A DNA stretch of 64,000 nt from Antedon mediterranea (Eukaryota > Animalia > Echinodermata): positions 8,370,001 through 8,434,000 of the forward strand of contig NC_092673.1 of NCBI RefSeq assembly GCF_964355755.1. The letters run 5' to 3'. The notes under the pieces are model-generated. The model did not search any database and had not been told where the DNA came from. It was given only the letters and a program-made list of their open reading frames with translations. Each line of letters starts with the position of its first letter. Positions within the stretch are counted from its first letter, which is position 1. Below, piece after piece: positions 15,801 to 63,853 of the stretch. The position numbers and the translations under genes are program-made.

Positions 15801-18800
15801 GGATAAAATAGGGGGTAACTGCCCAGATGAAGAAGACGTCACGAATAGTCCTGATAATTCAAGATCACGTGTTGGCCGTTCAACAAGTAGTAGTTACATG
15901 CTAAACATTAGAGCGTGTGCAAGGTATCATTCATTCTCATACACTTTTTTTGTTATATGAATTTTTCAATAAAATGCTTAAGATCATGATTTTTTTCACG
16001 ACTGATATGAAGTTGTTGTTGTTCTATATTAAACAAACTGTAGACTAGCAGTCTATAAAATTGTTGAATTTTAAATTTAAATTTCAGAATGATCCTTTTG
16101 TGACCATAATTTTTCTTAAAATTAACTTACAATCTTAAATACGAACATACAACGAAAATAAAATAAACATTATAATACATTTAGATACCATGGCCACGAA
16201 AAGACCGGAATGTCTATTATTGAAGTTGGAATCTATTCTGGATTCAGAGCTAAAGAAGAAGACTTAGAATTAGTAAGTATCGGAGAAAAACATGATTCGT
16301 TTATTTTTATATGCATTTGAATTGCATAATGATATGCTTGACTTCATTTGCATATATGGATGTATGATAATGATGTGAGTTTTTTCATTTTAAAGATATT
16401 AAAGGAAATTGACCTTGTGAAAAAGTACGAATTTCAAGATAGATCCGTTGTGTTCTATTTAGACAGCGTAAGTACCGTAAATATCGTAAATATATCTACC
16501 CCTTGGTCCCCACTAGGACGCAACGCACGAACTCAGTAATTAACCAATCACGACGCGATGGATCATTCCATGTGGCTTGTGATTGATCAACACACTTGCG
16601 TGCGTCCAAGTGGAAACCAAGCTTGAGATTACTAGATGTCAATACTATAAAGAGGTTTTTATATCTGAACCAATTATGTAGATAACTTATTATTCATGTT
16701 TTTCTTTTCAACATGTTTCACTATTTCCCATCAGGATTAACCAAACGCTGCGAAAACTGGTGCAAGTCCGCCCTCTATAGCAATAATAAGTCAAACACCC
16801 GTGGAAGTTTCTCTCATAATATGGCATTAACTTTAAAAATAGCAGCATAATTATTTCTTCAGATCTTCACTGATAATGATCTACTGCGATGGCGGTGTAG
16901 GTTTAACTATTTTTTAAAGGTATACAAGATGTATGCCATTTCATCCAATAGGTTACTTTTCATGTAACTACAATCAAATGTTGTATTTTTTTTTATTTCT
17001 GTAAGCAGATTCCTCGCGATGAGCGTGTTTGTGTGAATTTCCGAGCTGAACGAGTGATCGTTGTAAGCGCTATTCAACCCGTCGCTGTTCACGTGTACGA
17101 TTATTATGAACCAGGTAGTGTAAGAAATGTTACCACCATGAATCAATTTCCAGCCCCTATATGTTATAATAATTTAATCCTTAGTTTGAAATACTAAAGA
17201 GCACTCGATTAATATTGTTTGCGGTACAAAATTAACAATGCAATAATAATACATATATGAAGTAAGTTTGATCATTGTTATTTCATGTTTTATTTTAACA
17301 AATTCTTCAAAATTAACTCTTATCGATATTAAGTGGAGTCATAAATTCAATTCGTGATTGCTTAGAGTAATATAGGCATTATTTTCGTTGCCTTTCACGA
17401 TTCGATTTACTACAACTGTAGCATATTAACATGCACAGAATAACGTAGTGTCGAGTGTGGGCGTCGAGAAGTAATCAAAAGAGAGCTTACGATTTGCAAC
17501 GACCAAGTCATGTTAATCCATCGTGCGCACGCGGAGATATTGAGACGTGTGTCCTCGCGCTTTTCACCTAGGCGACGAACGGTCTGCGTCGTTGCAAACC
17601 AAAAGCTCCCTTATACAATATAAACCCATAGCATCTGTCACAACATTATGCATATTAAATAAAAACAATATTAATAAACATATATGGGATAATTTAAATC
17701 CACAGAGGAGAAATGTACTGACTTTTACCATCCAGAACCTGGTAGTGATCTGCTCAATCTACTGTGTACAGACGCTGATATGTGTATCTGTGCTGCAGGT
17801 ACGAGAAACTAAGTGGTCATGGATTAAGCCTGCTTTTCATTAGTCGACTTTTAATCGAAAGCGCTAAATAATGCGTATTCGTATTCATATTTCCATCTAC
17901 TTTTTTGTGATTTGAAAATTGCGCAACCAGAACTCATGAATTGTTCGATCGGCGCGAATAATATTCATCTTCCAAATTTCCAAATCCCTTTCTGCGACGA
18001 ATTCTAGTTTCTAGGAGATCGCTTCACATCAGCGAAGTTGGTATTGTTCGAATTTGTATGCGAAGCAAAACAATTCGCAACCAATCAGAGCTTGGAAAAA
18101 TTAGTTTCTATGCCTTCATGAGCACTCAACATGCAACAAACAACAATTGAAAAAGAGAGATTTTTTTTTCTCTGAAAAAAAAGTTGGATTCGTGCGAATA
18201 AATTCGCCTGGTGGAATTCCGGGTTTATAGCTTGGCATATTTCGTGAAAGTTCTTATCAATTTTATATATAATGCAATTTATAGTGCAAAGTATAAGTTC
18301 TGTTACTTGGTAGCAATCAAATCAGTTGTTATTTAAAAGTTTTATATAACATTAATGATTGAGTCACAGACGTTTATAAACAAATCTCTTTACTGCCAAA
18401 CAAGTTTGGTGTGTCGTTCTACAGTTGGTGCATCTATCAAAAAACAAATGAATGAGACGAAAACAACTTTCACTACTAATAATCTAAAGATTAATTGTAT
18501 TTGCTTTATTGTTCCAATGACGTTTTACCTTTTCTATTGTTTAAATGTACTTAAATAATACAATTATGTTTTTGTTTTTCGAAAGGTAATTGCGCTCTTT
18601 GTAATTCAAAGAAGACCAAATCTCAATTGATAGATGAAGCATGCAGTCAAAATAGAGATTATGGTAAGTGTCTCTAGAAAGAACATGGCATTTTGGTTAC
18701 ATTACAATGTTTTCTGTAGTGTAATGTATGCATATTTAAATGTAAATACATTGGATTACATGGATTGATATTATAGGCTACTGTTGATGACGTCAGTAAT

Positions 18801-42296: not shown

Positions 42297-43641
42297 TGTA
42301 ACACTTGTTACAACCGTTAATGTAGAAAACGCCAGCTTATGTCGAAACAACCGTTAATGTAGAACAACCAACCGCTTATGTAGTAAAACCTCCAGCTTAT
42401 GTAGAAACACCAACAGCTTATGTAGTAAATACAAATCAACGCCAGCTAATGTAGAAACAGTTAACAGCTTATGTAGTAACGAAAATTGCCTCCCAGCTTA
42501 TGTAGTTACTATCGCCAGCTAATGTAGAAAATGTTATACATTTTACAAAAATGTCTCATTTATGTGCCAGTGCATCGATCTTTACTTAGCTATCAGTCTT
42601 TTCACCTCTCGTAAGCAACCAACTTTCTAAAACGACCACACATCGTAAGCAACCATCTCTGTTAAGGGACCGCTTCTCATAATCGACCACCTCTCGTAAG
42701 GGATTACCTCCTCTCATAAGGGACCACTTCTCATAACCGACCACCTCTCGTAAGCGACCACCTCTCTTAAGGACCACGCCTTTCGTAAATGACCACCTCT
42801 TTTAAGGGACCACGACCTCTTTCTCTCTATTAAAGGACCGCTTCTCATAATCGTCAGTGACGACTCTTTTAAAGGACCACCTCTCTTAACGACCCCACCT
42901 CTTGTAAGTGACGACCTCTTATAAAGGACCACCACCTCTATTAAGGGACTGCTTCTCATAATCGACCATCTTCCATCACAATGACCTCTCGAAAGTGACC
43001 ACCTCTATTGCGACGACCAGTGTCTCTGTTAAGGGACCGCTTCTTATCATTGACCACTTCCGAGAGGTGGTCGATTATGATAAATGGTCCCTTAAAAGAG
43101 ACGGTGGTCGTTCAATAGAGGTGATCACTTACGAGAGGTGGTCTATTATAAGCAGTGGTCCCTTAATAATAGAAACGGTGGACGTTCAACAGAGGTGGTC
43201 ACTTACCAGAGGTCGTTGTGACGGGAGATAGTCGATTATGAGAAGCGGTCCTTTAATAGAGAGAAAGAGATCGTGGTCCCTTAAAAGAGGTGGTCATTTA
43301 CGAGAGGTGTGGTCGTTAAAAGAGGTGGTCACTTACGAGAGGTGGAAAGACTGATAGCTAAGTAAAGATCGATGCTTGCACATGAATTATAGACATTTTT
43401 GTAAAATATATAACATTTTCTACATTAGCTGGCGATAGTAACTACATAAGCTGGGAGGCAATTTTCGTTACTACATAAGCTGTTGACTGTTTCTACATTA
43501 GCTGGTGTTGATTTTTATTTACTACATAAGCTGTTGGTGTTTCTACATAAGCTGGAGGTTTTACTACATAAGCGGTGGATTATTCTACATTAACGGTTGT
43601 TTCGACATTAGCTGGCGTTTTCTACATTAGCGGTTGTAACA
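42297..43641. mobile_element. Foldback element with two classes of internal tandem subrepeats and TGT...ACA termini
   Basis: TGTTACAACCGTTAATGTAGAAAACGCCAGC (42306) mirrors GCTGGCGTTTTCTACATTAGCGGTTGTAACA (ends 43641). Outer subrepeats are CAGCTTATGTAG, inner are GACCACCTCT. Centre near 43058. ACGCT flanks both sides (42292-42296, 43642-43646). Confidence 0.85.
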
Positions 43642-44995: not shown

Positions 44996-47900
44996 ATGAT
45001 GAAATTAAGCGTGATTATTGTCATCATCGGATTAAATTCTAACTTGGTAGCGCCTGTTCTTCAGCGAAAAGGTATGAATACAGTTATCTATCCAAGCCAA
45101 ATAATGATACAATCGGGGATACAATACCGGTAACGTACGATATATAATATTGTTCATAGACTTTACTAATGATCATTGTCGTGTCGAGTGGCCAAGTGGT
45201 AAAACAACATCACACTGAAACTCCTCGAACATTGTTCGTGGTAGACAAGTATTCTCGGATAAGTCAAAGTCAGGTGTTACAAATCCGCATGTGTATTTTG
45301 AACACAGTGCATCTTTCAGAAAAGTTGGGATATACTTAAGCCACTGTCTTTATGCTGATACAAAACTGAAACGAAATAAAACAAATCTTAGACAATTGTA
45401 ACAATATCTATTATTATATAAATACAACTTATAGTATTATATTTGGAATGAGACATACAATATACAGTGTATATATAAGTGTAATATTAAGTTGACACAC
45501 ATTAATTTTTAGTGATTTACCGTCTTTCTTCTATTTGTTCTTATCCAACAGATGGACGATTTGGAGGTCTTGGAAGAGACGAACTGAGCTCAGGGAAGAC
45601 AACAAATATACCTCTATCAACCTATAACCCCTCCACTATAGACCCACCTTTACAAAGTACAACTTATAATTTTGTCACAAAGGAACCACTTAAAATACCT
45701 GCAACGTCATCAGCATCTTCAGAAAATATTAATTCTTTATTTACAAATCAACAAAAAAACAATATTTCTGATGGAATACTGGACACAAAATCAGAAAGTT
45801 CTGTCGGGGAACCGCCTCCTGGAAATCGAACAAAAGAATTACATTCTGTAACTAATAATACCTTTTATAAAAGTTTTAACGAAAAATCTATTTATACTAC
45901 TGTTACACATAAAGATGCGACTAAACATCAAGAAAATGAGACAGACAATAGTCATACTTTATCAATGGACCAAAATCAGTATTCGAATATAAACGGTTTA
46001 GAGGATAATAATAAAACAATATCTTACAATACAGAGACTTATAATCCGCAAAATGTCACGAATACGTCAAATTCAAAGTTATTTAAAGACCCATCGTTAG
46101 TGGATCAAGAATTTCAGGACGACGCAGAACGTGGTTCCGGGGCAGAAGATTTCCCAAGATCTGCTTCGAATCGGATGTCTGTCAGATATGGTCAGAAAGG
46201 TGAAAAGGGTTTTAAGGGACCAAGGGTAATTATTGTCAATTTTTACGATATTTTTCTATAATATTAGATTGAGTTATGCCGTCATTGTTTGTAGACCCAG
46301 CCTGTCATGCCTTTTACAGACCGAAGCTATTAAAATCATTAAATTCCTAATACAACTCTTATCTCAACATAAAAAGTTACCATTTAGAGGTATAGGTATT
46401 TTAATTATATTGATATTCACAAAACACGGAGCGGATGTGCGGTTAAGCGGAAACCCGCTCCGGGATAGATACAGATTTTACGCGGGACAAACACGCGGTA
46501 TTATCCGCTCTTTTGTGTATATTGGCCTATACACGAAGTACAGTACCGTAATGTACAACATAGAAACCACGGTCCCCGTAGGGATCTGGTTTGTTTATTA
46601 AGCGTATTATTGAATTAGACCTATTATTGTTGATACTAAACATAATTCTCATTGGTTCCTGAGAGTTTTGAAATTGAACGTGATTAACCTGGTTTTCATT
46701 GTATTATTAACTGAATTCAAAAAGCACATTTCTATCAATGTATATGTTACTCATGTAAAACATGTTCTTAATTTCAGGGCATAATTGGAGTACCTGGGCT
46801 CCCGGGTGTTCGTGGACCAAGAGGTGAACCGGTAATGATTCTACAGTAATTTAAATTTAAATATTACCAGATGTGTTGTTAGGCAATTAATGCTGCAATT
46901 ATTAGATGTAATTCACAGAGCCTATAGTATTAGGTTAGATAACCACGGATGTAATTGAGGAAGCATTGTGATTAATTAGTGTATGCTACTGATACGAGCG
47001 TTTGAACGCAGTTTTACCATACATTCTCAATTTCTTTGTGACTACACTCAGACTTGAATAACTATAAGAGACCTACGAAGTGTTATACTAAGCGTTAATA
47101 CTAGAAGAACATGAACAGTTTTACTAAGCTGTATAAATAAGACGGGTTTGTTGTTAGTAAATAATGCTGTTGTTTTTAATTACATGGTGAAACGTGAGTT
47201 TAATGTTAAAAGGAGAGTTGTACAACAAATTCCAAACTCCTTTAATCAAACGAATAGCTTCACGTTACTGAATTTAATCCAATTTCATATTGATAGAAAT
47301 ACAAAACAACACAGCGAATCACTACAAAGCTAATTATTTTTGTAATTTACCCAATATAATTCTACACTCATTTTATATTTGATTATAGGGAAAGCGCGGG
47401 CGCAAAGGTCAACCTGGTCCAATTGGACCCATCGGACAAACGGTAGGTTTTCACTGCACAATCTAAACGAATCAGGATAACTTTTATGTAAATAGTGATA
47501 TTCATAAAGCATAACTCATTGAATCTTAATCTTTCAAAACGAGGAAATAAATGTGTGTATAATGTTAACTGTTTTTTGGATCTAATCATGTATCAATCAG
47601 TACAAGCGTGACTTTGGTAGGTAAATTGTAGGCCTATGTAGTGGATTTATTTATCTCGAATATATGTATGTCTGAAATAAAATGGAAATTAAATTATAGG
47701 AAGTCATCATTGTAGGTTATTAATAGTTACCGGTAGCACATTACATATGATGCAACTAGTCATTTCATGTAAGCTGTATGTCATCGCCAATTTTTTAAGC
47801 TTTTATGCAGAAATAAAGTTTGGCACAAAATCAGTAAGGACTCTAGAAACAACGTAGCATAACAATTAGTGTAGATATTTGTGTAGGCCTACAGTCAGAC

Positions 47901-50900
47901 CAAACCCAGGCACTTCTACAAATCTAACATTTTGATTTTGGTATTATACTTACACTTTAGTGGGTATTCCCATATTCAAAGAGGTAAAATGGTCACAACT
48001 TACAGAAATAGAACTTCGTTTTCCATCATAAAAAAAAAAATTGTTATATTCATTGATTTATACTCTGAAATGCATAGAGTTGCTGTAAGATTGAACAATA
48101 ATAATAATTTATTATCAAAAGTAGTTCAGAATGGTAATGTTGTTTAGTAAAAATAGATAAAAATAGCATTAGTACAGAAAGAGATTGGTATTAATTAAAT
48201 TTGTATTAGCCTTCTTTAAACAGGGAAGTCAAGATCAGTGATATCACTGCAATATTGGTATTATAAATAATTAATAATACAAAAATAAAAACTGGACTAA
48301 TTGATTTGTTTGTTAGGGGTTACGAGGTCACCCAGGACTGAAGGGGTATTTTGCACCACAAGGATTACCGGTAAGTTCAATATACTCTACCTGTGTTTCA
48401 AATTGAAGGTATGGTGGTTCATGGTGACTCAACCACTAAATACATTTAGGCCAACACTCGATTCTTCTTTTGCTAGACTATTATATTCAGTATTTTTTAG
48501 TATGTACATCATTTTGATTCTGTTTTGATCGTATTGCGCAACATGCTCGACTATTCACAGACTTGATAATTATTCCTCATTGATGAGGTATTATTATTAT
48601 TATTATTAAAATGTATTCTATTTACGGTTATTATAGACAAAAGTTAAACAGAAAACACCATACCATCTGTAAAACAACTTTCTATTTTGTTCACACCCTC
48701 CATCATACATTTTAAATAAGTTGTATTACACAAAAAAATACAATCAGTTTTTTATGTTAGGTCAGACATTTCAATTCATCATTATTTATTTGACAGAATT
48801 GAAGATGTGAAAACTCAACCTTGAGCGACAGGATATTGAAATTCATAAATTTCCTTCCTAGAAATCATTATATATAGAATGGTTCGTGAGTCACATGGGT
48901 TTCTGGATATCTCAGTGAACCGCGTCCATGGCGACGAATTGCTAAACAACAAGCACTTAAAACGATTAGCCGTCATAATAAATATAAGTTTGCTTATTGA
49001 GAGCAATAATGTTATGATTCATTACACATTTGGTTACTAATTTGTTCTATTTGTTTTAAGAACAATTAATTTGAAAATGTAAATAATTGTGTAGCTATCG
49101 TTATTTTTCAGGGTGATTCGGGAATTGATGGAACGGTTGGTGAAAGAGGTTTAAATGGCATAAAGGTAAGACAATCAGTTTATCTATATTTACATCGTAA
49201 AGAACGACATGAAGAAACAGTATAAAAATAAAATATAGTCATGCTTTCGGTGACAATTTGTGAATAATTTGTAAATACTGCACAGGCATATCATTATGGG
49301 AACAATTCAAGCTGATCAACTTCTTTAAATATGATTGGAGTTACTTTTGTTTTGTTATGGGATTAATTAATTTTTTTACAGTACTTTATAAAGTATTTTT
49401 TTGTAAAAAGTTGATCAAGATAGAGGGCGTCATAATAGTTACCTTGTCGACATACAGTGATTTCAATTGATTTAATGAGTTTATTATGTGTTATAAATTC
49501 TCTTCATTTATGATTTTACTTTATTTTAATCAGGGTGAGCGTGGATTACCTGGGCCAAAGGGAAACAAAGGAATTAAGGTATAATATTAATTAATTAATG
49601 TCCACAATAACATTGACTACGTCATATTTTACCCACTGAGAAAACGGTATCAAATAAACGACGTGTCGGTTATAACATGTTTATAGGTTTTAGTGTGGCG
49701 CTTTATATTACTAATACTAATAGCCTAGTGGCTAAAGAATAACGGTAACAAGATTCGTGTCTGACATTTATTTAAAGCCAAAAAAATATAACACTTTTAA
49801 TTCCGTTGACTTGCCCATAACTTGGCAACGTTCTATTAAATATCATTACTTACTGTTAATATGACCTAATTGTGACTGTCAATGTGATATTGACATGTCT
49901 GTGAATACAGATTGAGGTGGTTTACTTCCCTTGATGTTTTATTTATCACGGTCGAAATCATTCGTTTCGCTTAACAGTATCAGACTTGGATACCTATGCG
50001 TAGACGGTCGAGAAAGTGTTTTTCTCCTTCACACTTCCTTCCTTATCAAACAGTTTTTATCTTCAATTTATTAATTTTAATTTTATGTCCACAATTTAGG
50101 GAATTATCGGAGAAACGGGAATTAAAGGCGAAAAGGGGTTCAATGGACGAAGGGTAATTTACTGTTTTAATTTTGTATTTTAGTTAAATTGAAAATACCA
50201 AAACAGTTTGGGTTATCTGTGTTATATTTTGTTTTGTTTTTGCAGGGACCAAGTGGGAAAACAGGACAGCAAGGGCCGGTCGGTATTGAGGTACTAATTT
50301 TGCTCTGTAATGCCTACTCTACGAAATAAAATAAAATGCTTTAGTAGACTTACATAGTTGTAAACCTGGTTGTAATATCTAATCTAAGATATTGTATAGC
50401 ACTCTTGTTCCTAACCTAATATCAACGTATGTTGTATTAAAACATACATTTTAACATTAACGCATGCGAATCTTTTCGCATTTACATTGAAAATGTGAAG
50501 TATCTATTTATAGGCTATACATTACCGTAGTAAGCATTAATAAAGGAATTGATACACATATTGTAATTGACCTTGTGATTAATTTTAATTAAAATGGAAT
50601 ATAGTGTACGTTCTCAAATTGTCTATTAGTACTTGTTTTATTGTTATAGTACGTTTTGTAAAAAAAATAATGGGTTTGAATTATTATTTTATTACTATAG
50701 ACATTATCTATTAACCAAATACATTGTTAAACTTACACTTTGATATTTCATAGGGAAGAAACGGTTTTCCTGGTGTTCGTGGATTCCCAGGACCAAGCGG
50801 CGAAATTGTAAATATACAATATTTTTCGTTATACATTCAATGAATCCATATAAATTCGAATTGCTTTTATGTCGCTTTCATTAAAACGCATGCCACTTAG

Positions 50901-53900
50901 TCCTACATTTGTTTCTTTCCTTCAGGGTGTTCCAGGACCACAAGGCCCCCGAGGTAGAATTGGACCTGAGGTAAGTAAAGGCAATTGTGCACTTGGAAGA
51001 GTAAATTACTTATCTAACTGCCGTATTTCTTTGTCATGAGAATCTTGCATTTTCTTTCGTTTGATGATGTTGGATAAAGATAATAACAATTAGCGACAAT
51101 GTTGTGAAGTAAATTGTATTAATTAATTAATTAACTAATTTAATTTCTAAACTATTTATATCATATACTGTATTATATTGTATACAGGGACACATTGGGC
51201 AACCTGGTCTCCCTGGTGAACTTGGAAGTGAAGGAAAACCAGTAAGATAAACTTATTATTAATACATTATTTTCCTTTTCCTTTTAACGCGATTAGTAAT
51301 AATGATGACTTCATTAATGATACACTTCTATTTCAATAGGGTCTTCCGGGCAATCCGGGAAGAGATGGAGAAACAGGAAAGCCGGTAAAAACTTGTTATT
51401 AAACTTCATAAAAGTGTTATATTGGCAATTATTGTAGGCTACTTGTTTTTTTACCGTAAACGTCTATATAACATTTCATGCTCAGTGTGTACAATAATTC
51501 ATATATCTGTATAAATAAATAAAAATAATAATACATTAACTATTGTAACATACTTGTTTATTACATATGTTTTTTTTTTAAGGGTGAACTAGGACCCCAG
51601 GGACCACAAGGTCCACCTGGACCAAAAGGTCAAAGTGTAAGTTATCTTATCTATTCATTAACAACTTGATAAAGAACCCAGTTTATTTTATATCGGAAGA
51701 GAAGTGGGTTACCCTGGAGTAATACTGGTCCATCTCAGCCCTGTTGTTCACGCTAGGCGCTGCATTATTGTTTCCATAGGTCCGTAGATGACGAACTGTC
51801 GCAATGAATATTATCACTTATTGATGAATGTTTAACTACTACGAATTAGCTTTGCGTCGGGGAGCCATGTTGATTGGTAAATGTTTTGCCAAAACCTAAT
51901 TGTACTTTACAATTAATACATTGAGAACAAAATATATTGTCCGCTATTCTGATTGATGAATTAACCGAGAGTGAACCTGTCCGGACCGGGACATTTAAAC
52001 TGTGTTTACTCAACGTGTTCACTTGTAGCCTAATGTACGTTTAGGTCAACTGCCACGAGAGCTCTAGGTTGATGACACGACAGTGAGTACACTAGTTTAC
52101 ATAGAAGTTACATAATATATAAGTTGGCATTGTCTTTCAACACAAGACAGATTTAAGTTATGTTGGTTACGCTACTGAATTACAGTATAATAGTTATGTT
52201 TATGTTAATCTTAATACATTTAATAGATGTGTTAGTTGGCAGTGATACTCGTTTCAGTATTGTAATCATTTTAGGTTGCAAAATGTGTGTGTGCCTTTGC
52301 TGACATATATTGGCACATTGTATTACATTCGTCAGTTAATCTTGTTTATTTTTGTTTTATTCAATGAAGGGAGGACAAGGAGACAAAGGTGTACCCGGAT
52401 TGAAAGGCCATAAGGTGAAACTGCTTTTTATATATCTTTTATTATTATTCTTTATTTGGTCAAATATAAAAAACATATATCAGAAATTCCTCTTATATGC
52501 ACTGCAGAGATAGTAACAAATATACATACAAAATACAAGTCATTATAAAATCACATATAAAATAGCAAAAAGTCAAAAAGTCTACGATCCAGGTGTTCTC
52601 TCCATGAGTTAGCGCTGGACAAAATTGTTATAGGTGACAATAGATTGTGGGACAAATGATTTATTGTAGCATTTAGTACGGCTTCGAGGCAGACGGATAC
52701 GAATATTAGATGGAAGAAAAATGTATTCCTTATGGAGCGGGTGGTCTGTTTGGGAGAGTATACGTTTTACCAAGGAGAGAACACCTGCATCATAGTTGAA
52801 ATTAAGTACGTATACATCAACTCCAATAACCCGCCCAGTCCTTCTGGTAATTTTATTTAGTAGTTCCTTATCCTTTTTATATAAACAAGCCTACCAGATA
52901 ATTCTACAAAAAGATATAACACTAAGTATGGTCGACTGGTAGAACAGAATAAGAATTTGTTTTCTAACATTAAATTTCCTAAGTTGTCTTAACAGATATA
53001 GCCGTTGTTGTCCTTTTTTATTAGTTATCCGCTTGGTATACCAAGCGGATAACTCCTTGTTATTGTATGAGATCAACATTTTTGGTTATCCGCAACGAAG
53101 TTGCAGGATAACCTCTTGTGATTGTACGAAATCATCAACATCAACTTTTTATTAGTTATCCGCACTTGGCGGATAACTCCTTGTTATTGTATGGGATCAA
53201 TATTTTTTTCTGTATTATTCTTCTTTCTTTCTCGCTATTTTTGTGTAGAGCGTTTCTCTAAAATGTGTAAACATAACATTTTATAACTTTGACAACATGT
53301 GGGCATTTACGTGAAGTTGTGCACCTCCTATTTTTGAATTACGTCAGAGTTGCGCAACGTGACTTACGCGCGATTTTATGATTTTTTATGATTGATCATA
53401 GATTAAAAACTAAAAGTGATTTTTAATTGACACTTTGTGAAAGTTTAATTTATATCATGCGCTAACTTTCTGTTTGAAAAAAATTGCGTGTTTTACACAA
53501 AGTTACGCGCGCACGCGCATTTAAAATTTCAAAATGGGCAAAAATAATTTCTAATCAACTTTCTACGCGTTTCATGTCATTTTAAGCATGTACAAAATTA
53601 CCGCGCGCGCGAAAAATATTACGCGCACGGTGCGTATAGAGCATGAAAATCATGTTTTTTTCTCTTGAATTGTGATTTTCCAGCCTTTCCTAGTCATTTT
53701 CAAAAAGATTGACATCATTTCAAATTAAAATTACGTCATACGAACACGTTGATTTAGCCCATTTGCGCGCGTTTTAGTTGAAAAAGTTACAAAATGTTGT
53801 CAAAATTATGCCTATTTTGAATGTTTTATAGCTTCTCAGGATCAACGATTACCCCTAATTTTTTTAACTTAATATGTAAGCAGATATGTTGTAGATATGA

Positions 53901-56900
53901 ATTCATGCAGAATTTTTACCTCACGGATGTTGTGACGTCATCATATGGCCACACGAATGTAAAATATAGAATTTTTTTGTCTTTCGTTATTGCTCATCAC
54001 ATTCAATGGAGCGCATCACGCTTATACGTATTTCTTTTTCTCCGAGATTTTAATATTGTCTAGGTCAATCAACTATCTTTCGCATGAGATAAAAATATTT
54101 TAATTTTTATGACGTCATCATGCCTAAAAATTTTAATTACGTGGGTCATTAATTTCATCTTTACAGTAAATTTTAATCTGTAATAGCCCGTCAAAATAAA
54201 ATGTGATAATCACGATTAAAACATTTTCTGGAAGCTCTTGGATTGTAGATATGAAATCATGTGAACATTTTGCCAATCAGATGCTGTGACGTCATCATAT
54301 TGCAAGTTAAATAAAAAAAGTCGTATTTTCATCTTTTGCATCATAGTTCATTATATTTAAAAGAGCGCGCATCAATATTAAACGTATTCAAATTTCTTCT
54401 ACACGTTAATATGTTGTTGCTGAGATAATTTGCTTCCGAAATTGCTATCTTAGTGTTTCATCTTGATACCGTCGCCATGTTACAAATTTGAATAAATGGC
54501 GGGTCCCGTGATTTCACCTATTCTACACTGTATGTAACATGTATACAGATTATACTGTTTGCATGTATATACTATATGACACAAAATTGACAGAATTCAG
54601 CACTAACAACATATCATATTCTTCAGATCAAGTCATAATGCCATAATTTTTTCTCTGTGCAATATTCTAACGTATGACGTGCACGTGGCGTTTGTCGTGC
54701 GGATAACTAACTCGTCAAAGTGACGAGTTACATGTCTAGTTTCTCTTCTTTCTTTCTGTATGATTTTTGTGGATCGCTTTTCTCTAAAACTTGCAAACAT
54801 AACATTTTGTAACTTTCTCAACATATCGTCATGCACATGAAGATGTGCAGCGAAGCTTTTCATGATGTTTACAATTGCGCAACGTGACTTACGCGCGATT
54901 TAACGATTTTGTCGTATTTAACATAGCTCGACAACCAAATAACATTTCAACTTGAAACTTTGCAAAAGTTTAATTTATATCATGCGCTAACTTTCTGTTG
55001 AAAAAAAATTGCGAGTTTTACACAAAGTTACGCGCGCACGCGCATTTAAAATTTCAAAATGCGCAAAATTAATTTATAATCAACTTTCTACGCGTTTCAT
55101 GTCGTTTTAAGCATGTCAAAAAATCCCACGCGTGCGCACATTTTTACGTGTGCGGTGCGCACGTAGCATTGAAAACGTATTTTTTTCGCGTGATTTATGT
55201 TTTTCCAGCCTTTTCTAGTAATTTTACCAAATTTTAAACAATTTCCACTTAAAGATACGTCATACGAGCACGTCGAATTGGACAATTTGCGCGCGTTTTT
55301 TATGAAAAGGTTAAAAAATTCGTTTAAAATATGCCTTTTTTTAAACAGTCGTAATTTCTAAACTAGACGGTCAAATTTTTGTGGATGACATATTCTAGAA
55401 GTAGATGAGTTGTAGATATCGGATCAGGTATTAATATGGCTAACCGGACATTGTGACGTCATCGTATGGCCACGCGAATATAAAATTTAGGATTTTTGTA
55501 TCTTTCGTCATAGCTCATCACATTGAATAGAGCGCATCTCCACTTATCCGTTTTCCATTTTTACCCCGATTTTGATATTTTCTAGGTCAATCAACTATCT
55601 TTCGTATGAGTTAAAAATATTTTAATTTTTTTGACGTCATCATGCCTAAAAATTTAAATCACGTGTGGCATCAATTTCATCTTTACAGTAAATTTTAATC
55701 TGTTATAGCTCGTAAGAATAAAATGTGATAATCACGATTAAAACTTTTTCTGGAAGCTATTGGATTGTAGATACGAAATTATGTAAAAATATTGCCAATC
55801 GGATGTTGTGACGTCATCATATGGCCAGTTAAATAAAAAAGGTCGTATTTTCATCTTTTGCGTCATAATTCATTACATTTAAAAGAGCGCGCATCAATAT
55901 TTCACGTATTCAAATTTCTTCTACACGTTAATACGTTGTTGCTGAGATAATTTCCTTTCGGAATTGCTACCTTCGCGTTTCATTTTAAAACCGTCAACAT
56001 GTTAAAAATTGCAATAAATAGCGGGTCCCGTAATTTCACCTATTCTACACTGTATGTGATATGGATACAGATTATACTGTGTATACTACATATGAATTTA
56101 AATAATAACATTCAGCAATAACAACATATCATATTCTTCAGTTCAGGTCATAATGGCAACGTGAACACTTCCTTTTGTCCTCAACCTATCCCCTTAATGT
56201 TAATGTTGCACCACTTGCGCGGCGGATAACCAAACTCGTCAAAGTGACGAGTTACATGTCTAGTTTTTCTGTATTATTAGTTATCCGCATTTAGCGGATA
56301 ACTCCTTGGAACTGTCCTGTGTCTTTTTTTTTTTTTTCATTATTCTTCAGTCTTTCTCCCTCACTTTTTGTGCAGAGCGTATCTCTAAAATGGGTAAACA
56401 TAACATTTCATAACTTTGTCAACATATGGGCATTTACGTGAAGTTGTGCACCTCCTATTTTTGAATGACGTCATAGTTACGCAACGTGACTTACGCGTGA
56501 TTTTATGATTTTTTTAAATTGATCATAGATTTAAAACCAAGCGTAATTTTGTTTTTACATTTTGTGAAAATTTAAGTCATATCAAGGGCAAACTGTTTGT
56601 GCATAAAAAATGGCATGTTTTACAAGAAGTTACGCGCGCACGCGCGTTCGAAATTTTAAAATGCGAAAAATTAATTTCTAATCAACTTTCTACGCGTTTC
56701 ATGTCATTTTAAGCATGTAAAAAATTCCCACGCATGCGCAAATTTTTACGTGTGCGGTGCGCACGTAGCATTAAAAACATATATTTTTCGCGTGATTTAT
56801 GTTTTTCCAGCCTTTTCTAGTAATTTTACCAACTTTTAAACAATTTCGACTTAAAGTTACGTCATACGAGCACGTCGAATTGGACAATTTGCGCACGTTT

Positions 56901-59900
56901 TTGATGAAGAAGTACAACAATTTGTCAAAATTATGCCTTTTTTTAAACAATCGTAATTTCTAAACTACACGGTCAACTTTTTGTGGATGACATATTCTGG
57001 AAGTTGATGAGTTGTAGATATCGGATCATGTATTAATATGGCTAACCGGACATTTTAACGTCATCGTATGGCCACACGAATATAAAATTGAGGATTTTTG
57101 TATCTTTCGTCATAGCTCATCACATTTAATAGAGAGCATCTCCACTTATACATTTTCCATTTTCACCCCGATTTTGATATTGTCTAGGTCAATCAACTAT
57201 CTTTCGCATGAGTTAAAAATATTTTAATTGTTATGACGTCATCGTGCCTAAAAATTTAAATTACATGTGGCATTAATTTCATCTTTACAGTAAATTTTAA
57301 TCTGTTATAGCTCGTAAGAATAAAATGTGATAATCACGATTAAAACGTTTTCTGGAAGCGATTGGATTGTAGATACGAAATCATGTAAAAAATTTTCCAA
57401 TCGGATGTTGTGACGTCATCATATGGCCAGTTAAATAAAAAAAGTCGTATTTTAATATTTTGCGTCATAGTTCATCACATTTAAAAGGGTGCGCATCTAT
57501 ATTTTACGTATTCAAATTTCTTCTACACGTTAATATGTTGTTCCTAAGATAATTTCCTTCTGAAATTGCTATCGAAGTGTTTCATTTTGATACCGTCGCC
57601 ATGTTAAAAATTTGAATAAATGGCGGGTCCCATAATTTCACCTATTCTACACTGTATGTAATATGTATACAGATTATACTGTTTGCATGTATACTATATG
57701 ACACAAAATTGACAGAATTCAGCACTAACAGCATATCATATTCTTCAGTTCTTGTCATAATGCCATAATCTTTATCTGTGTGTAAAATATTCCAACGTAT
57801 GACGTGCACGTGGCGTTTGTCGTTGTGCGGATAACTAACTCGTCAAAGTGACGAGTTTCATGTCTAGTTCTTCTTTCCTTCCTTCCTTTTTGTGAGTCGC
57901 GTTTCTCTAAAATGTGTAAACATAACATTTCATAACTTTGACAACATATGGGCATTTACGTGAAGTTGTGCACCTCCTATTTTTGAATGACGTCATAGTT
58001 GCGCAACGTGACTTACGCGCAATTTTATGAATTTCAATGATTGATCATAGATTAAAAACCAAAAGTCATTTAGTATTGACACTTTGACAAAATTTAAGTC
58101 ATATCAGGGGCAAACTTTCTACGGATTAAAAATGGCATGTTTCACAAGAAGTTACGCGCGCACGCGCATTTAAAATTTCAAAATGCGCAAAATTAATTTC
58201 TAATCAACTTTTTACGCGTTTCATGTCATTTTGAGCATGTCAAAAATTCCCACGGGCGCGCAATTTTTTACGCACGCGGTGCGCACGTAGCGAAAAAACA
58301 TATTTTTTTCTCTTGAATTATATTTTTCAAGCCTTTCCTAGTAATTTTGAAAACAATTTAGAACTTTTCCAGTTTAAATAACGCCATACGAACACGTTGA
58401 ATTAGACAATTTGTGCGCGTTTTTTATGAAAAAGCTTAAAAAATCATCAAAATAATGTCTTTTTTTAAACAGTCATAGTTTCTAAAGTAAACCGTGAACC
58501 GTTTATTTTTATTACAAAATCTAGAAGTTGATGAGTTGCAGATGTCGGATCATGCATCAATAAGGCTAAAAAAACATTGTGACGTAATCGTATGGCCACA
58601 CGAATGTAAAATATAGGATTTTTGTCTGTTTCGTTATTGCTCATCACATTCAATGGAGCGCATCACGCTTATCTGTATTCCTTTTTCTCCTATATTTATA
58701 TATTGTCTAGGTCAATCAACTTTCTTTAGCATGAGATAAAAATATTTAAATTTTTATAACGTCATCATGCCTAAAAATTTTAATTACGTGGGTCATTAAT
58801 TTCATCTTTACAGTAAATTTTAATCTGTAATAGCTCGTAAGAATAAAATGTGATAATCACGATTAAAACATTTTCTGGAAGCTATAGGATTGTAGATACG
58901 AATTCATGTAAACATTTTGCCAATCGGATGTTGTGACGTCATCATATTGCCAGTTGAATAAAAAAAGTTGTATTTTCATATTTTGCGTAATAGTTCATCA
59001 CATTTAAATGTGCGCGCACCAACATTTTACGTATTCAAATTTCTTCTACACGTTAATATGTTGTTGCTAAGATAATTTTCTTCAGAAATTGCTATCGTTG
59101 TGTTGTTTTTTTTATGACGTCGTCATGTTAAATATTTGAATTAAAGGCAGGTTCCATAATTCAGTTAATATGTCATATAATATACAGTAGTACAATGTAC
59201 ACCAGCATAGTCTCTGATGTGAGCAAATTGTTGTTTGCCGCCCTCTGTATCATGTAGAATTAATGTCTCCTTTTATACACAGTGTACTGTATAATTATAA
59301 TACGTTAAAAACTATAATAAGAGGTGGTCCTGTATTTTCGTGCACGTGGCATCTGTCGTGCGGATAACTAACTCGTCAAAGTGACGAGTTTCATGTCTAG
59401 TTTATTATTATCATTTTACGAATGAGGGTACTGTCTAAATGTAAAAGCTAAACTTTTCATTTGACAGGATGTTAGACAATAGATCTTTTGTTATTTAAAC
59501 TTTGACCCTTGGCTTGTGTTATTTAATTAGTTGTTTTTTTTTTTTAATTTCATTCATTGGACTTGATAATGACCCCATGATCCAAATTAAATGTACTTAC
59601 TACACATTTATTTTCGAGAAAATGTAAATCGACTTCGGTAGCTAAATTGTATTTACTACAAGCAACGATACATTGTTTTAAATTAAAATGTTTTTGTATT
59701 CCCACATTTTAACATATGTATTTACATTTTCATGGTTATTGTCAGGGTAGCAGTGGCAGGGAAGGGGAGAAGGGATTTTCGGGTGAAACAGGAGATAGGG
59801 TAAGTTAAGTTTGTAAATATAACAATATAACCTTATACTATATTGCAATAAAAGAATGTTTTACATTTTATATCGTTTCGACATTTCGTTAGAAAGTTGT

Positions 59901-62900
59901 GATTACCTTATGTTGTATGTTTATTTTGTAATGCTTTTGAAATCTTCTTTTACAGGGAGCTATTGGACAAATAGGACCACGAGGTCAAAAAGGAGATCGT
60001 GGATATAGTGGTGAAGAAGGTATTAAGGGTATCAGAGGTGAAACGGGATTTCCCGGACCACGTGTAAGAAATTATTCTTTTGTTCTGGGATGTATAGAAT
60101 ACCTATACATATTCGTTATTATATAGCTTTTTTGTTTTGGCGTTTAGCACAATTCCGTGTTTAAGATTAAGAATACGAATAATGTGAATGAATGAAGGTG
60201 GTAGCTTCCACAAAAAAAAAAATAAACATTTATCTCTATTGAGAACGTTGTGACGATTAGTTAATAATACCCATTATGTTTTTCATATCCTTGACAATAA
60301 TGTGATGTAAATGTTCACATGTTTTTTTTCTTTCGTATTTGTGTCTTTGTAGGGGGAAGTTGGACATACTGGCGTAAAGGGTACCATGGGTATTCCGGGA
60401 AAAACTGTAAGTACGATTAATTGTTTTAGATAAATGAGGATTTATCTAGCGAATAGAAACCATTATTCGTTTTATAACACATCACCTGTCCTATTAGTTT
60501 AAATAAATTAAAATACACTTATTTTCATAATTAATATACATATATGCAAAAAAGAAGGCTACTGGAGTTTGAACGCTGACATTAGACGTCATACTCTATA
60601 TTTTAGATTAATTTGATAATAATTAAAATATAACTTTCACCGTTGAAAAAAAAACACGAAAATACCGATTGCTCGTGATTATGAATTATTTTATTGCGTA
60701 CGTTTACTTTTAAGGGTCATAAAGGTGATACGGGTGGTGTTGGTCGAGCAGGATTACGAGGATCAAAGGTATGTAATAGATGTGAATTTATATACATATT
60801 TAATCAATATTGTATTATTGCCGAAGTACATGAGATTTTAATCTCCTACTTCTCCTGAGCGACAAACACACAAATTAAGCATGTTCTACACTATTAATCA
60901 CACAAAACAAGTATGAGCACAAAATAACGTTAAGAGAGAGCGAACTTCATCCATTTTAATAACACAATGATGGCCTGCTACCAAGTATGACAACGTAAGT
61001 TGATCCTGTCTGTGCCAACAGTGAACTGCGTATTTTAACAGAGTAAACGTGATTGTGCTTAGTTTTCTACTCTCGTTAACAAAAAAAAACTGTATTTTCG
61101 TATAGGGCAACAACGGATTTAAAGGACAAAAGGGCAGTGAAGGTAGACAGGTATGTTTTCCTGTTCATTTTTTCTTAAATTGTGATTTAAAAAAAAAGGG
61201 TACTTTTAAAGTTGTATTGTTGTTGTTAATACAAACATAATAATACTTTAGATTTATGATAAGCGAAATATTATGTAAGAGACAAGGTAATTTTTGACAG
61301 TAAACCTATTTATGTTTATTTATTCTGACAGGGAAAAAAGGGACGTTATGGCCCTAAAGGCAGAAGTGGCAGACACGGATCTCAGGTAAATTCTAAATTC
61401 TGTATGTAGGACTAAATATAATTCTCTTAATCAGAATTTAACGAATAAATGTCTTGAATCTTGAGAAGTTCGGGTAGTATAAATGTATCCTAAGATTTAA
61501 TTAGCCGTGCTTTTCTATGTATTTTAATTATTATTTGATAAATTTATACCATAAATAGATAAGCTTTTTTAAGTTATAATTCATTTAATTACAGGGTGAC
61601 ACCGGAGCACCTGGTAAAGAGGGTGGAATTGGTCCTGTGGTAAGTCTTATCAGACGAACACTGTAGATAGCAAAGATCATGTGTATGTGTTAAGACTTTA
61701 CTAAACACTATAACACACCTGATTGTATTCTGGCAATTTGGTGTTTGGATTAGTCAATTACGCATCACGTTTCATTTTGAATTAGTCCTATGTAACGAAA
61801 AAGTGAAATTTAATGGTGATACTAAGGCCCTGTTCAGACCCATGGCGTTAGACCGTTTTAGCGTACAACGTTACTATCAAGGTCACGTTACAAACCGCAG
61901 AGAAAAAAACGAGGTGTTCAGACCCATAGCGTACGATTATCGTTACAACGGAAGTACGTCATCCAAGTTGTTTCTAGTTGCATATTCATGTGCTCTTACC
62001 CACGTGTTTTCATCATTATTTCCACTGTATACAGGCCTAGATCTCAGCCCTACAATTATGACAAAATTTGCCGTAGATAAAACATACCTCAGCATTTATT
62101 TAAGAAAAATATAGTAAAGCCAAATTTCTGTTTCTATTGTTTTTATTTTGTAGTAAAAAACATTTTCCCCAGGCTCTTGTGTTACGAAAATAAAGCAGGC
62201 CTCGTAATGATGAAGAAAAAAATGATTGTGATTAGTCTATCCAGTCCAGTCAAAGATTATATATTCTTTGGTCCAGTCGGTTGAAAATAACCCTTAACTT
62301 GCTAATAAAAGGGAAACAGCTCCCCTTGTTTGTTTACTGATTTTTTTAGGAGTTAGGGGGTTTTCAGCATTAAACTTGTCCAGTCTAGTCTGCCTTGTAT
62401 GAATGAGTGACTTGATGTCCCAGGCTAGTTTTTAGCTTGAATGAAATGCGTGAATGGCTCTAGGCCTAGCTAGGCCTAAAAGCGGATGGGATCGTAGTCC
62501 CTATGTTTAAATACAAGGTGCATGTATTTATGTCATTTGTTAGAAAATATAATGGTAATCAGTTGATAATAGTTTGTAGCCTTTGTAACAGTTGTATTTG
62601 TAGTGTAGTTAGGCCTTATTTATTCTGGCCTTTTTGTTATTGAAATCCATCTCACACATTGACGATACAAGATGTCAGTCTAGGTCAAACCTTGTTTCGC
62701 GTCATAACAGGAAACGTTCTGATTGGATACAACGTTGACTTACAGTAGCGTCGTACGCTAAAACGGTACTATCAACCGTTTTCCACTACAACGCTACAAC
62801 CGTTTTGTACAACGCGTTGTACGCTAATCCCCAACTGTTCAGACACACATTCTTTTAGCGTCGTACGCTAAAACGGTCTAACGCCATGGGTCTGAACAGG

Positions 62901-63853
62901 GCCTTAATGTGCGGAATTAAACTTGATGTGCGCGCTGTCATAATTGTTCTATTCTGCGTCCGCTCTTTTTAATAGCCAAGCTTCCCGGTCGCGAAAACTT
63001 GTGTCAATTTACGATGTATACAGTATCTTGAATAAAAACAAATTAAGGTTTTGTATTCGCTGAATGGAAAGGATACTCCATTCGATGAAAAACTGACTGC
63101 TCTCTTTTCTACTTATGAAATACTCTCACCATCCAACTTATCAACATTCATTGTGTGTATAATATTTTATACTTATTAGTAAATGTCGTTTTTTAAAGGG
63201 TTTACCGGGACAGAATGGCCCACTCGGAGAACGAGGCAGAAAAGGACCCGAAGGAGATTCTGGGAGAAGCGGTGGCCACGGACCCACAGGAGATTCTGGG
63301 CAGCCAGTTAGTGTATAATTTGTATTTCTTTTAAACACCAAAAATAACTTCAATTGAATAGTGCTTCTATATAAATCCATCCAATCTAAATAATATGCAT
63401 TCAATTATGTGATCAAAAGTGACGTAAGTCGCCCTCTTGACGTTTTAAGAACCAATTCTAGAGCAAGTGATTAATATTATAAATAATATGTTACGCTTTA
63501 ATTCCTAAATTCCGTGGTCCGTTAAAAAAATCCATCTTCGCATTTAAATATTATGTTCTACCAACACTGGTGTTATTTTTTGTAGGGTCTAAGGGGGGTT
63601 GCTGGTGCACCTGGGCCTGACGGAGTGCAAGGTCAACAGGTAGGTTCTTATTATTAAAACGTATAGAATGAATAATAAGTAATAAGAACGAAAACACCAT
63701 GGTTGAATTAAGGTATATGAGAACAATGTATTTTAAAGTCATAGTACCATTGGGAAAAAATTCTATTTATAAATTATAATTATTTGTTTTATTTTTTAGG
63801 GTCCCCCTGGTCCACCTGGTCCACCTGGAACTACTGGTTTACCTGGTTACACA
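44996..63853 (+). CDS. Fibrillar collagen alpha chain (clade B/C-like). 3' part lies outside the window; 25 exons visible.
   Basis: Signal-peptide exon 44983-45071 (ATG 44996, MMKLSVIIVIIGLNSNLVAPV) and N-terminal exon 45552-46225 ending GQKGEKGFKGPR. Then phase-0 Gly-X-Y exons: 46778-46831, 47389-47442, 48317-48370, 49112-49165, 49534-49578, 50100-50153, 50246-50290, 50754-50807, 50926-50970, 51188-51241, 51340-51384, 51583-51636, 52370-52414, 59746-59799, 59956-60063, 60353-60406, 60715-60768, 61106-61150, 61332-61385, 61595-61639, 63199-63306, 63586-63639, 63800-63853. All are 45, 54 or 108 bp and start with a Gly codon. Confidence 0.95.
45178..45335 (+). mobile_element. Degenerate tRNA-derived SINE fragment
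   Basis: A-box-like GTGGCCAAGTGGTAA at the start. The rest is decayed. Confidence 0.35.
45552..46225 (+). CDS. Collagen N-terminal Ser/Thr/Asn-rich region plus start of the triple helix
   Basis: 674-nt exon inside ORF 45512-46261. Several N-x-S/T sequons, DDAERGSGAED, no Cys. Confidence 0.9.
52440..53019 (-). mobile_element. 5'-truncated Rex1/L2-group LINE (ORF2 C-terminus and 3' tail)
   Basis: Minus frames give KKGQQRLYLLRQLRKFNVRKQILILFYQSTILSVISF and RILSQTDHPLHKEYIFLPSNIRIRLPRSRTKCYNKSFVPQSI, typical ORF2 C-terminal motifs. AAT-rich tail near 52440. Confidence 0.8.
53082..56263 (+). mobile_element. Helentron/HINE-like element B (inside A, interrupted by C)
   Basis: Variant head TTGGTTATCCGC (53082) pairs with variant tail GCGGATAACCAA (56222-56233). 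CTAG at 56260-56263. Confidence 0.8.
53152..54739 (+). mobile_element. Helentron/HINE-like element C (intact, inside B)
   Basis: Head TTAGTTATCCGC (53152), body of about 1.55 kb, tail with hairpin and CTAG at 54736-54739. Confidence 0.85.
56277..57867 (+). mobile_element. Helentron/HINE-like element D (intact, inside A)
   Basis: Head TTAGTTATCCGC-attta-GCGGATAACT (56277), tail with hairpin and CTAG at 57864-57867. Confidence 0.85.
61823..62906. mobile_element. PIF/Harbinger-like non-autonomous element (about 1.08 kb)
   Basis: Perfect 44-bp inverted ends TAAGGCCCTGTTCAGACCCATGGCGTTAGACCGTTTTAGCGTAC, TWA-type flanks and subterminal TGTTCAGAC / AGCGTAC repeats. Confidence 0.85.

What the first reader, a model, noticed from the sequence alone, without database searches (positions are those of the whole stretch)
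53021..59400. Matryoshka of four Helentron/HINE-like elements that insert into their own 5' region, with co-varying head/tail repeats
Seen: what looks like a 4 x 1.55-kb tandem array has heads at 53021, 53082, 53152 and 56277 and tails ending 54739, 56263, 57867 and 59400, all in one orientation. It parses as A[B[C]B'][D]A'. First check: removing B and D rejoins A as gatcaacatttt-tttctgtatta-ttcttcttt, matching intact C (gatcaatatttttttctgtattattcttcttt). Second check: only head B reads TTGGTTATCC and only the 56263 tail reads GGATAACCAA, a compensatory pair, while the others are TTAG/CTAA. Established: Helentron/DINE-1-like elements have a 5' subTIR with a nearby inverted copy, a 3' subTIR plus stem-loop, and insert in T-rich sites without TSD. 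Inference: three independent, same-orientation insertions about 60-75 nt into a sister element point to self-targeting, a route to satellite-like arrays other than rolling-circle read-through.
Basis: partly seen in the sequence, partly recalled or inferred. Interest (0 to 1): 0.82.

Follow-up and report, generated by a model that had tools for sequence, protein, structure and literature searches.

The report
Four-copy self-nesting Helitron2-type transposon
What looks like a four-unit tandem repeat in a collagen intron of a feather star is four copies of a 1.6-kb non-coding transposon sitting inside one another, each 61-74 bases behind another copy's front hairpin, likely because new copies of this rolling-circle-type family are drawn to a T-rich stretch carried there, a habit already inferred for fungal relatives.

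Summary
Observation confirmed. 53021-59400 parses base-exactly as A[B[C]B'][D]A': four full-length copies (1588-1607 nt, 76-84% identical) with Helitron2/HLE2 ends (12-14 nt asymmetric inverted repeats, 5' and 3' hairpins, T^T sites, no target duplication). Head B pairs only with tail 56263. Public contigs hold B-type head joined directly to B-type body at tens of copies' depth, so B[C]B' is a true nest. The family is highly repeated; the host is a collagen-like intron of an Antedon-like crinoid. Insertions lie after +61, +70 and +74, in the element's T-richest tract. Orientation follows from that tract and is not separate evidence. T-richness partly explains the position within an element, but in my rough model (assumed genome size and copy number) not a triple nest, so homing to sister copies is likely but unproven: no genome, long reads or autonomous partner were available. 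Self-insertion into 5' ends is already proposed for Fusarium Helitron2 (first 31-85 nt repeated). The scan's own unchecked notes report the same pattern on other DNA, including 13- and 14-copy nests in this genome. A clean small example of a known kind; not a satellite.

The parts
53021..53081 (+). Copy A, +1..+61: 5' ATIR (53021-53032) and 5' hairpin (53023-53054), cut off by insertion of B
53082..53151 (+). Copy B, +1..+70: variant 5' ATIR (53082-53093) and hairpin (53084-53113), cut off by insertion of C
   Evidence: head B joined to body B' in public contigs
53152..54739 (+). Copy C, intact, 1588 nt: 5' ATIR 53152-53165, 5' hairpin 53154-53178, 3' ATIR 54697-54710, 3' hairpin 54708-54730, ends CTAG
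53201..53232 (+). T/pyrimidine tract of copy C (+50..+81), the unfilled equivalent of the site used three times; 22 T and 27 pyrimidines in the best 30 nt
53816..54519 (+). Internal degenerate duplication of about 355 nt in copy C (53816-54160 and 54171-54519, 62.5% identical); present in all four copies
   Evidence: (family D1)
54740..56263 (+). Copy B, remainder (B'), +71 to end: variant 3' ATIR 56222-56233 that pairs only with head B, 3' hairpin 56233-56253, ends CTAG
56264..56276 (+). Copy A, +62..+74: 13-nt piece stranded between the B and D insertions
   Evidence: matches intact C at the same columns
56277..57867 (+). Copy D, intact, 1591 nt; 5' ATIR 56277-56289, 3' ATIR 57826-57838; mosaic: A/C-like front, B-like middle (88-95% over columns ~350-1200), C-like 3' part
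57868..59400 (+). Copy A, remainder (A'), +75 to end; divergent segment about 59150-59340; 3' ATIR 59360-59371, hairpin, ends CTAG
52370..52414 (+). Host gene: Gly-X-Y collagen-type exon upstream of the nest (AG/GT borders)
59746..59799 (+). Host gene: next Gly-X-Y collagen-type exon downstream of the nest; the nest fills 6380 of the 7331 nt between the two

Best explanation
The locus is a nest of four full-length copies of a high-copy, non-coding 1.6-kb element with Helitron2/HLE2 ends, likely built by three insertions into the T tract that each copy carries 50-80 nt behind its 5' hairpin, and likely helped by the transposase being drawn to sister copies. Shown: the nested order, the end structures, T^T sites with no duplication or loss, and that each guest differs from its host by about 20% while close relatives of the guest type are abundant elsewhere, so these are not copies that jumped into themselves. 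Inferred: A landed first in the intron; B went into A (after +61), C into B (after +70), D into A (after +74); the order of D against B/C is open. Inferred from the family: a Rep/helicase from an unseen autonomous partner moves single-stranded copies and joins them at T^T on the T-rich strand, which fixes the orientation. Inferred and untested: the enzyme, bound at a resident copy's 5' ATIR/hairpin, offers the adjacent T tract as a target, so each insertion brings a fresh target and stacks heads on the left and headless bodies on the right.
For: Balanced last-in-first-out order and base-exact rejoining, including the 13-nt piece 56264-56276. ATIR matrix ties head B to tail 56263 only. 6 of the 15 joints shown (of 245) link head B to body B', among them 53151->54740 (skip of exactly 1588 = copy C) at depth 14138/3282/411 in three runs of one sample against flank depths of about 290/55/22. 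Guests are 76.5%, 79.5% and 80.9% identical to their hosts while bins over B' and D reach 0.35-1.35 million summed depth at >=90% likeness. If every TT on either strand were equal, three draws land on the sense strand within any 14 nt with P about 1e-4; P reaches 0.05 only if each extra T in 20 nt multiplies the odds by about 7, yet the used sites hold only 11-14 T of 20. Host DNA has 46 sites per kb as T-rich as the poorest used site, against 9-14 per head tract; with 2000-8000 copies and 350 Mb assumed, expected triple nests are 6e-6 to 2e-3 at moderate T bias and 7e-4 to 0.16 at strong bias. In one search the four distinct joints that go back to a head all start at about +52 to +62, none in +86..+329 (12 of 16 rows of that table shown).
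Against: The head tract is the T-richest stretch of each copy. Among sites with >=11 T in the stretch laid, 13 of 24 lie in +45..+85, so 4 of 4 joints there has P about 0.09 under T preference alone, and those joints may descend from one composite. At extreme T bias (x7 per T) and 8000 copies the T-only model expects about 7 triple nests. Copy number and genome size in the model are assumptions; summed contig depth is not a copy number. The locus was picked because it is nested. No autonomous partner, no genome-wide count, no long read. A head-to-tail joint (tail B to a head, depth 2200, table 5c) shows that other routes to tandem copies operate in this family.
Confidence: 0.58

Rival explanations
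1. Same nest, but built by plain sequence preference: the transposase likes long T/pyrimidine tracts, the element happens to carry a very good one, and with thousands of copies some tracts are hit repeatedly; no recognition of the sister's hairpin.
For: Best 30-mer has 19-23 T in the head tract against 18-19 T or A elsewhere in each copy; only 4 host loci in 57.6 kb reach 22. 22-46% of an element's sites with >=12 T lie in the tract. A itself sits in a host T run. HLE2/HINE preference for T-rich DNA is established.
Against: Used sites hold 11-13 T of 20 in the three nested cases and such sites occur at 12-46 per kb in host DNA; the T-only model needs an extreme bias to expect one triple nest. 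A more specific motif than T count was not modelled (3 of the 4 sites read TTAT^T, found at 11 per kb in host DNA).
Confidence: 0.27
2. Fewer independent events: composites such as B[C] or stacked heads were formed once elsewhere, moved as units by end bypass or start at the outer head, and recombination between family members finished the structure.
For: One head-to-B-head joint has about 5-6 times single-copy depth (1825 and 259), as a mobilised two-headed composite would. Copies are mosaics: 91 informative sites switch partner 27 times against 53 in shuffles, 0 of 10000 as low; mosaic joints exist at multi-copy depth. Mobile multi-head composites are described in Fusarium.
Against: The composites in that model lose the outer tails; here all four tails and all four bodies are present and balanced. 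Even a pre-formed B[C] needs a C-into-B insertion at +70, so the count of self-insertions stays three.
Confidence: 0.08
3. Tandem array from rolling-circle read-through, integration of a circle by homologous recombination, unequal crossing-over, or an assembly error.
For: Bodies lie head to tail at 1522-1602 nt spacing. A direct tail-to-head joint exists in the family. No listed contig spans the nest, and the laid runs differ from the window at several sites, so they do not confirm this haplotype.
Against: Units are 76-84% identical; two junctions are tail-to-+71/+75, not tail-to-head; the missing heads are stacked at the left in the matching order; head B covaries with the second tail; a misassembly of copies this different would not give base-exact balance.
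Confidence: 0.04

Closest known systems
Helitron2 / HLE2 non-autonomous elements (Bao and Jurka 2013, PMC3627910, passages; HELIANO paper PMC11417382, passages)
   Same: [quoted passage not shown]
   Different: Ends in CTAG (then T), the Helitron1/proto-Helentron motif; no Rep/helicase partner seen; those passages describe no positional self-nesting.
FoHeli1 (Fusarium oxysporum Helitron2) with multiple 5' termini (Chellapan et al. 2016, PMC5148889, passages; PMC13342296, passages)
   Same: First 31, 65, 73 or 85 nt repeated, up to five 5' termini, explained by self-insertion; TNAT^T target, matched by 3 of the 4 sites here.
   Different: There the stacked heads have one 3' end and the nest is inferred; here the nest is intact with all four tails, in an animal, and across subfamilies with different ATIRs. 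Their supplementary tables of multiple termini were not read and may hold fuller nests.
HINE / DINE-1 and oyster Cg_HINE (PMC4067079; PMC7492417; PMC2374699; passages)
   Same: 5' subTIR plus nearby inverted copy, low-complexity tract behind it, central repeats, 3' subTIR plus stem-loop, T-rich targets, variable T count at ends, subTIRs that change with subfamily.
   Different: The tract here is a T/pyrimidine run, not a tetranucleotide microsatellite; the central repeat is two 355-nt units at 62% identity; a link to an endonuclease-bearing Helentron is untested.
Nested maize Helitrons with multiple termini (PMC3288121, passages) and tandem formation by double insertion (McGurk and Barbash 2018, PMC5932611, passages)
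   Same: Helitrons insert near or inside other Helitrons; site preference makes dimers that can seed arrays.
   Different: Helitron1 ends in maize; no fixed position behind the 5' hairpin in the passages read; double insertion gives head-to-tail dimers, not nests.

Membership tests
Helitron2 / HLE2 | [quoted passage not shown] | tested here: met
   12, 12, 14, 13 nt perfect, starting at +1; definition
Helitron2 / HLE2 | 3' arm about 20-30 bp from the 3' end, just upstream of a hairpin | tested here: met
   ends 29-30 nt from the end; hairpin follows
Helitron2 / HLE2 | 5' hairpin that includes the 5' arm | tested here: met
   4 of 4 heads, z -6.2 to -10.4
Helitron2 / HLE2 | Insertion at T^T without target duplication | tested here: met
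   3 nested sites rejoin without gain or loss apart from one extra T in a run; empty B site seen in contigs. The cut can be read A^T, T^T or T^C because TT fits either side; T^T fits all four. Empty site for A in the host not seen.
Helitron2 / HLE2 | Rep/helicase partner in the HLE2 clade with the same ends | not testable with these tools
   no genome held; no stop-free frame of 100 aa in 53021-59400; tail patterns found no relative in viral or metagenome contigs
Helentron / HINE (strict) | Autonomous partner with an apurinic endonuclease domain | not testable with these tools
   as above; definition
Helentron / HINE (strict) | 5' subTIR + inverted copy, 3' subTIR + stem-loop, central repeats, T-rich target | tested here: met
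Helitron1 | 5' TC end, no 5' hairpin or inverted repeats | tested here: not met
   starts TT[A/G]G with hairpin and ATIRs; only the 3' hairpin + CTAG is shared
Satellite / rolling-circle tandem array | Similar head-to-tail units, homogenised | tested here: not met
   76-84% identity, nested junctions, longest identical run 47-76 nt
Cut-and-paste MITE | Terminal inverted repeats at both very ends and a target duplication | tested here: not met
   3' arm is subterminal; no duplication beyond the ambiguous TT

The most novel reading that the evidence does not exclude
Helitron2-type transposase homes in trans on the 5' hairpin of resident family members, across subfamilies with different terminal repeats, and integrates into the T tract just behind it: an element-carried landing pad that builds ordered nests, records insertion order, and feeds the multi-headed and mosaic copies of the family.
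Probability: 0.4. Interest if true: 0.68.

Novelty: new member of a known kind. Interest (0 to 1): 0.36.

Why it matters
It preserves, with all ends intact, the intermediate that was only inferred for multi-headed Fusarium Helitron2 elements, and warns that such nests are misread as tandem or satellite arrays. If hairpin-dependent homing holds, target choice by a eukaryotic rolling-circle transposase becomes testable with a simple statistic (hits in head tracts against matched T tracts) and nests give the relative ages of subfamilies. As a single four-copy locus it adds little beyond the larger nests that the scan's unchecked notes already report.

Tried and rejected
Whole-genome test: no genome is held for this window, so family-wide insertion mapping and the partner search could not be run. 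Tail patterns: 0 matches in viral contigs; 1 match in metagenome contigs, which shares only the 21-26 nt hairpin and is a chance hit. Rfam at gathering thresholds: 0 matches in 52400-59800. Coding capacity: none of the 15 stop-free frames of 100 aa or more lies in the nest. Independent confirmation of the junctions: no listed piece spans them (32 of about 50000 and 16 of about 5000 pieces shown); the three deep runs are one sample and show other letters than the window at full depth at several places (52624, 57574, 58363, 59153, 59813, 60177, 60719), so they are likely another individual or haplotype. Alleles lacking C or D at this locus cannot be told from intact family copies elsewhere; an empty-site joint for A was not among the 15 of 245 joints shown. 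Self-reinsertion of a donor into itself was rejected because guests differ from hosts by about 20% as subfamilies. Recent gene conversion between neighbours B' and D was considered for their shared middle: no tract near 100% (best 100-column windows 95%, longest run 72 nt), so older or inherited mosaicism is preferred. No tree was built: with four mosaic copies the site patterns (51 AC|BD, 24 AD|BC, 16 AB|CD) say more. Look-up of earlier findings by this sequence returned nothing, so I could not test whether the other nests noted in this genome are this family.
Full report
Observation. The region was read directly and searched for terminal motifs. Four heads begin at 53021, 53082, 53152 and 56277 and four tails end at 54739, 56263, 57867 and 59400, all on +, exactly as reported; blastn of copy C against the window finds no fifth copy. 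Cutting out B and D rejoins A (61 + 13 + 1533 = 1607 nt); cutting out C rejoins B (70 + 1524 = 1594 nt); both align end to end with intact C (1588) and D (1591), at 76.5-84.2% pairwise identity. Insertions fall after +61 (B in A), +70 (C in B) and +74 (D in A).

Ends. Each head starts with a 12-14 nt arm whose reverse complement ends 29-30 nt before the 3' end; head B matches only tail 56263, and the other heads match only the other three tails. All four heads fold into hairpins that include this arm (0 of 200 shuffles as stable, each), and each tail has a 9-10 bp stem after the 3' arm (0-7 of 200) before CTAG. Because TT stands on both sides, the cut can be read in several registers; T^T fits all four sites, three of which read TTAT^T. 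This is the Helitron2 definition of Bao and Jurka (PMC3627910, passages) and the HLE2/HINE pattern (PMC11417382; PMC4067079; PMC7492417; passages). No stop-free frame of 100 aa lies in the nest and no Rfam family matches. Each copy has two internal units of about 355 nt, 62.5% alike in C.

Setting. Twenty-two Gly-X-Y exons with AG/GT borders run from 46778 to 63853 on +, and the nest lies between those at 52370-52414 and 59746-59799. An exon of a thioester-protein gene elsewhere in the window is 97% identical to an Antedon mediterranea protein and 74% to one of Anneissia japonica (2 hits of 25 candidates), so the host is a feather star. No genome is held.

Evidence from public contigs. Thirteen runs hold part of the stretch, four of them over half. 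Laying three of those four (one sample) and X1 gave about 290-fold depth on unique flanks and 0.13-1.35 million summed depth on the nest in X10; the tool warns that this is no copy number, but it shows a highly repeated family. Six of the 15 joints shown (of 245) join head B to body B'; one skips exactly copy C (53151->54740, 1588 nt) at depth 14138, 3282 and 411, i.e. tens of intact B-type copies elsewhere. This supports B[C]B' without using the ATIR argument. Against a single route, one joint runs from tail B directly into a head (depth 2200; 12 of 319 rows of that table shown). A second lay on 52985-53480 gave 10 joints in the main table, all forward skips, and in the second table (12 of 16 rows shown) four distinct joints going back to a head, from about +52, +58, +60 and +62 (depth 199, 421, 1825, 407; the third also in X11 at 259), none from +86..+329. 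These are short joints in a T run, from one sample, may share an origin, and exclude junctions identical to the window's own. Since 13 of the 24 T-rich sites in that stretch lie in +45..+85, 4 of 4 has P near 0.09 under T preference alone. No listed piece spans the nest.

Is it more than T availability? The tract at +50..+85 is the T-richest 30-mer of all four copies. With every TT equal, three sense-strand hits within any 14 nt have P about 1e-4; weighting by local T content raises this to 0.012 at e-fold per T and 0.046 at e-squared per T. With a threshold instead, the tract holds 13-23% of an element's sites with at least 11 T in 20 nt and 22-46% at 12, so position alone is only moderately unlikely, and orientation follows from the strand of the tract. 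The stronger point is frequency: host DNA in this window has 46 such sites per kb against 9-14 per head tract, and a rough model with 2000-8000 copies and 350 Mb (both assumed, the size from recall) expects 1e-8 to 3e-6 triple nests with no T bias, 6e-6 to 2e-3 at moderate, 7e-4 to 0.16 at strong and 0.04 to 7 at extreme bias. The used nested sites hold only 11-13 T, which fits extreme bias poorly. The model is crude, uses one window as the host sample and ignores a more specific motif.

Relations among copies. Guests are not sisters of their hosts. The copies are mosaics: 91 informative sites change partner 27 times against a shuffled mean of 53 (0 of 10000 as low); D resembles A and C at the front, B in the middle and C at the end. 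No tract is near-identical, and mosaic joints occur at multi-copy depth in contigs, so shuffling among family members is likely older than or independent of this nest.

Mechanism. Shown: nesting, ends, sites, subfamily differences. Inferred: mobilisation by a Rep/helicase of an unseen partner; T-strand joining that fixes orientation; each insertion supplies a new tract. Inferred and untested: attraction to the resident 5' hairpin. I put the nested-insertion parse at about 0.93, split 0.58 for tract plus homing, 0.27 for tract alone and 0.08 for composites.

What is known. Chellapan et al. describe Fusarium Helitron2 copies whose first 31, 65, 73 or 85 nt are repeated, explain them by self-insertion, and give a TNAT^T target (PMC5148889, passages); a 2026 paper finds up to five 5' termini (PMC13342296, passages). 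Maize Helitrons insert near or inside others (PMC3288121, passages, citing work that I did not see). A review covers rolling-circle arrays and nesting (PMC12628747, passages); double insertion as a source of tandems is in PMC5932611 (passages); PMC2374699 and PMC13085455 (passages) add TT preference and telomere-targeted Helitrons. Seven searches of the open library (listings only, apart from the papers named) showed no quantified test of insertion behind the 5' hairpin and no description of this crinoid family; subscription papers, Repbase and Dfam were not searched, and no supplements were read. The scan's own notes, unchecked, report the same pattern at three other places in this genome, two with 13-14 copies of a 1.6-kb element, and in six findings from other genomes; a look-up by sequence found none. 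I treat them as leads, not support.

Verdict. Real, well parsed, a new member of a known kind. The open and testable part is whether the tract alone or the hairpin beside it draws the insertions. Interest 0.36.

Noticed in passing
window 53201-53247 and 56326-56374 (+): The element's pyrimidine tract is followed by TAG (C) or CAG (D), which looks like a 3' splice site in the sense direction of the collagen intron; no RNA data were seen, so use is unknown.
   Followed up: no
window 52472-53020 and 59401-59559: Both flanks of the nest are themselves repeated (depth well above single copy, between unique contigs ending at 52471 and starting at 59560); 52582-52795 has 25-nt inverted arms like a small MITE. 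A may have landed in another repeat.
   Followed up: partly
window about 1900-16000 (+): Exons of a thioester-containing (complement C3 / alpha-2-macroglobulin family) gene with a GCGEQ motif, 97% identical over 105 aa to an Antedon mediterranea protein.
   Followed up: partly
window 45506-63853 (+): Collagen-type gene with at least 22 Gly-X-Y exons of 45, 54 or 108 nt and a long low-complexity exon near 45506-46230.
   Followed up: partly
window 42310-43634: Short tandem arrays (17-21 nt units) that appear mirrored: 42311-42933 and 43051-43634 carry reverse-complement units, as in a foldback element.
   Followed up: no
window 56263-56265 joined to a head (contig joint): A direct tail-to-head joint of B type at about 7-8 times single-copy depth: head-to-tail tandems or circle joints also exist in this family.
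   Followed up: no
window about 59150-59340: Copy A has a non-homologous segment in place of the family's pre-terminal region, and B has a shorter one at 56150-56220; possibly captured DNA; neither has a second match in the window.
   Followed up: partly
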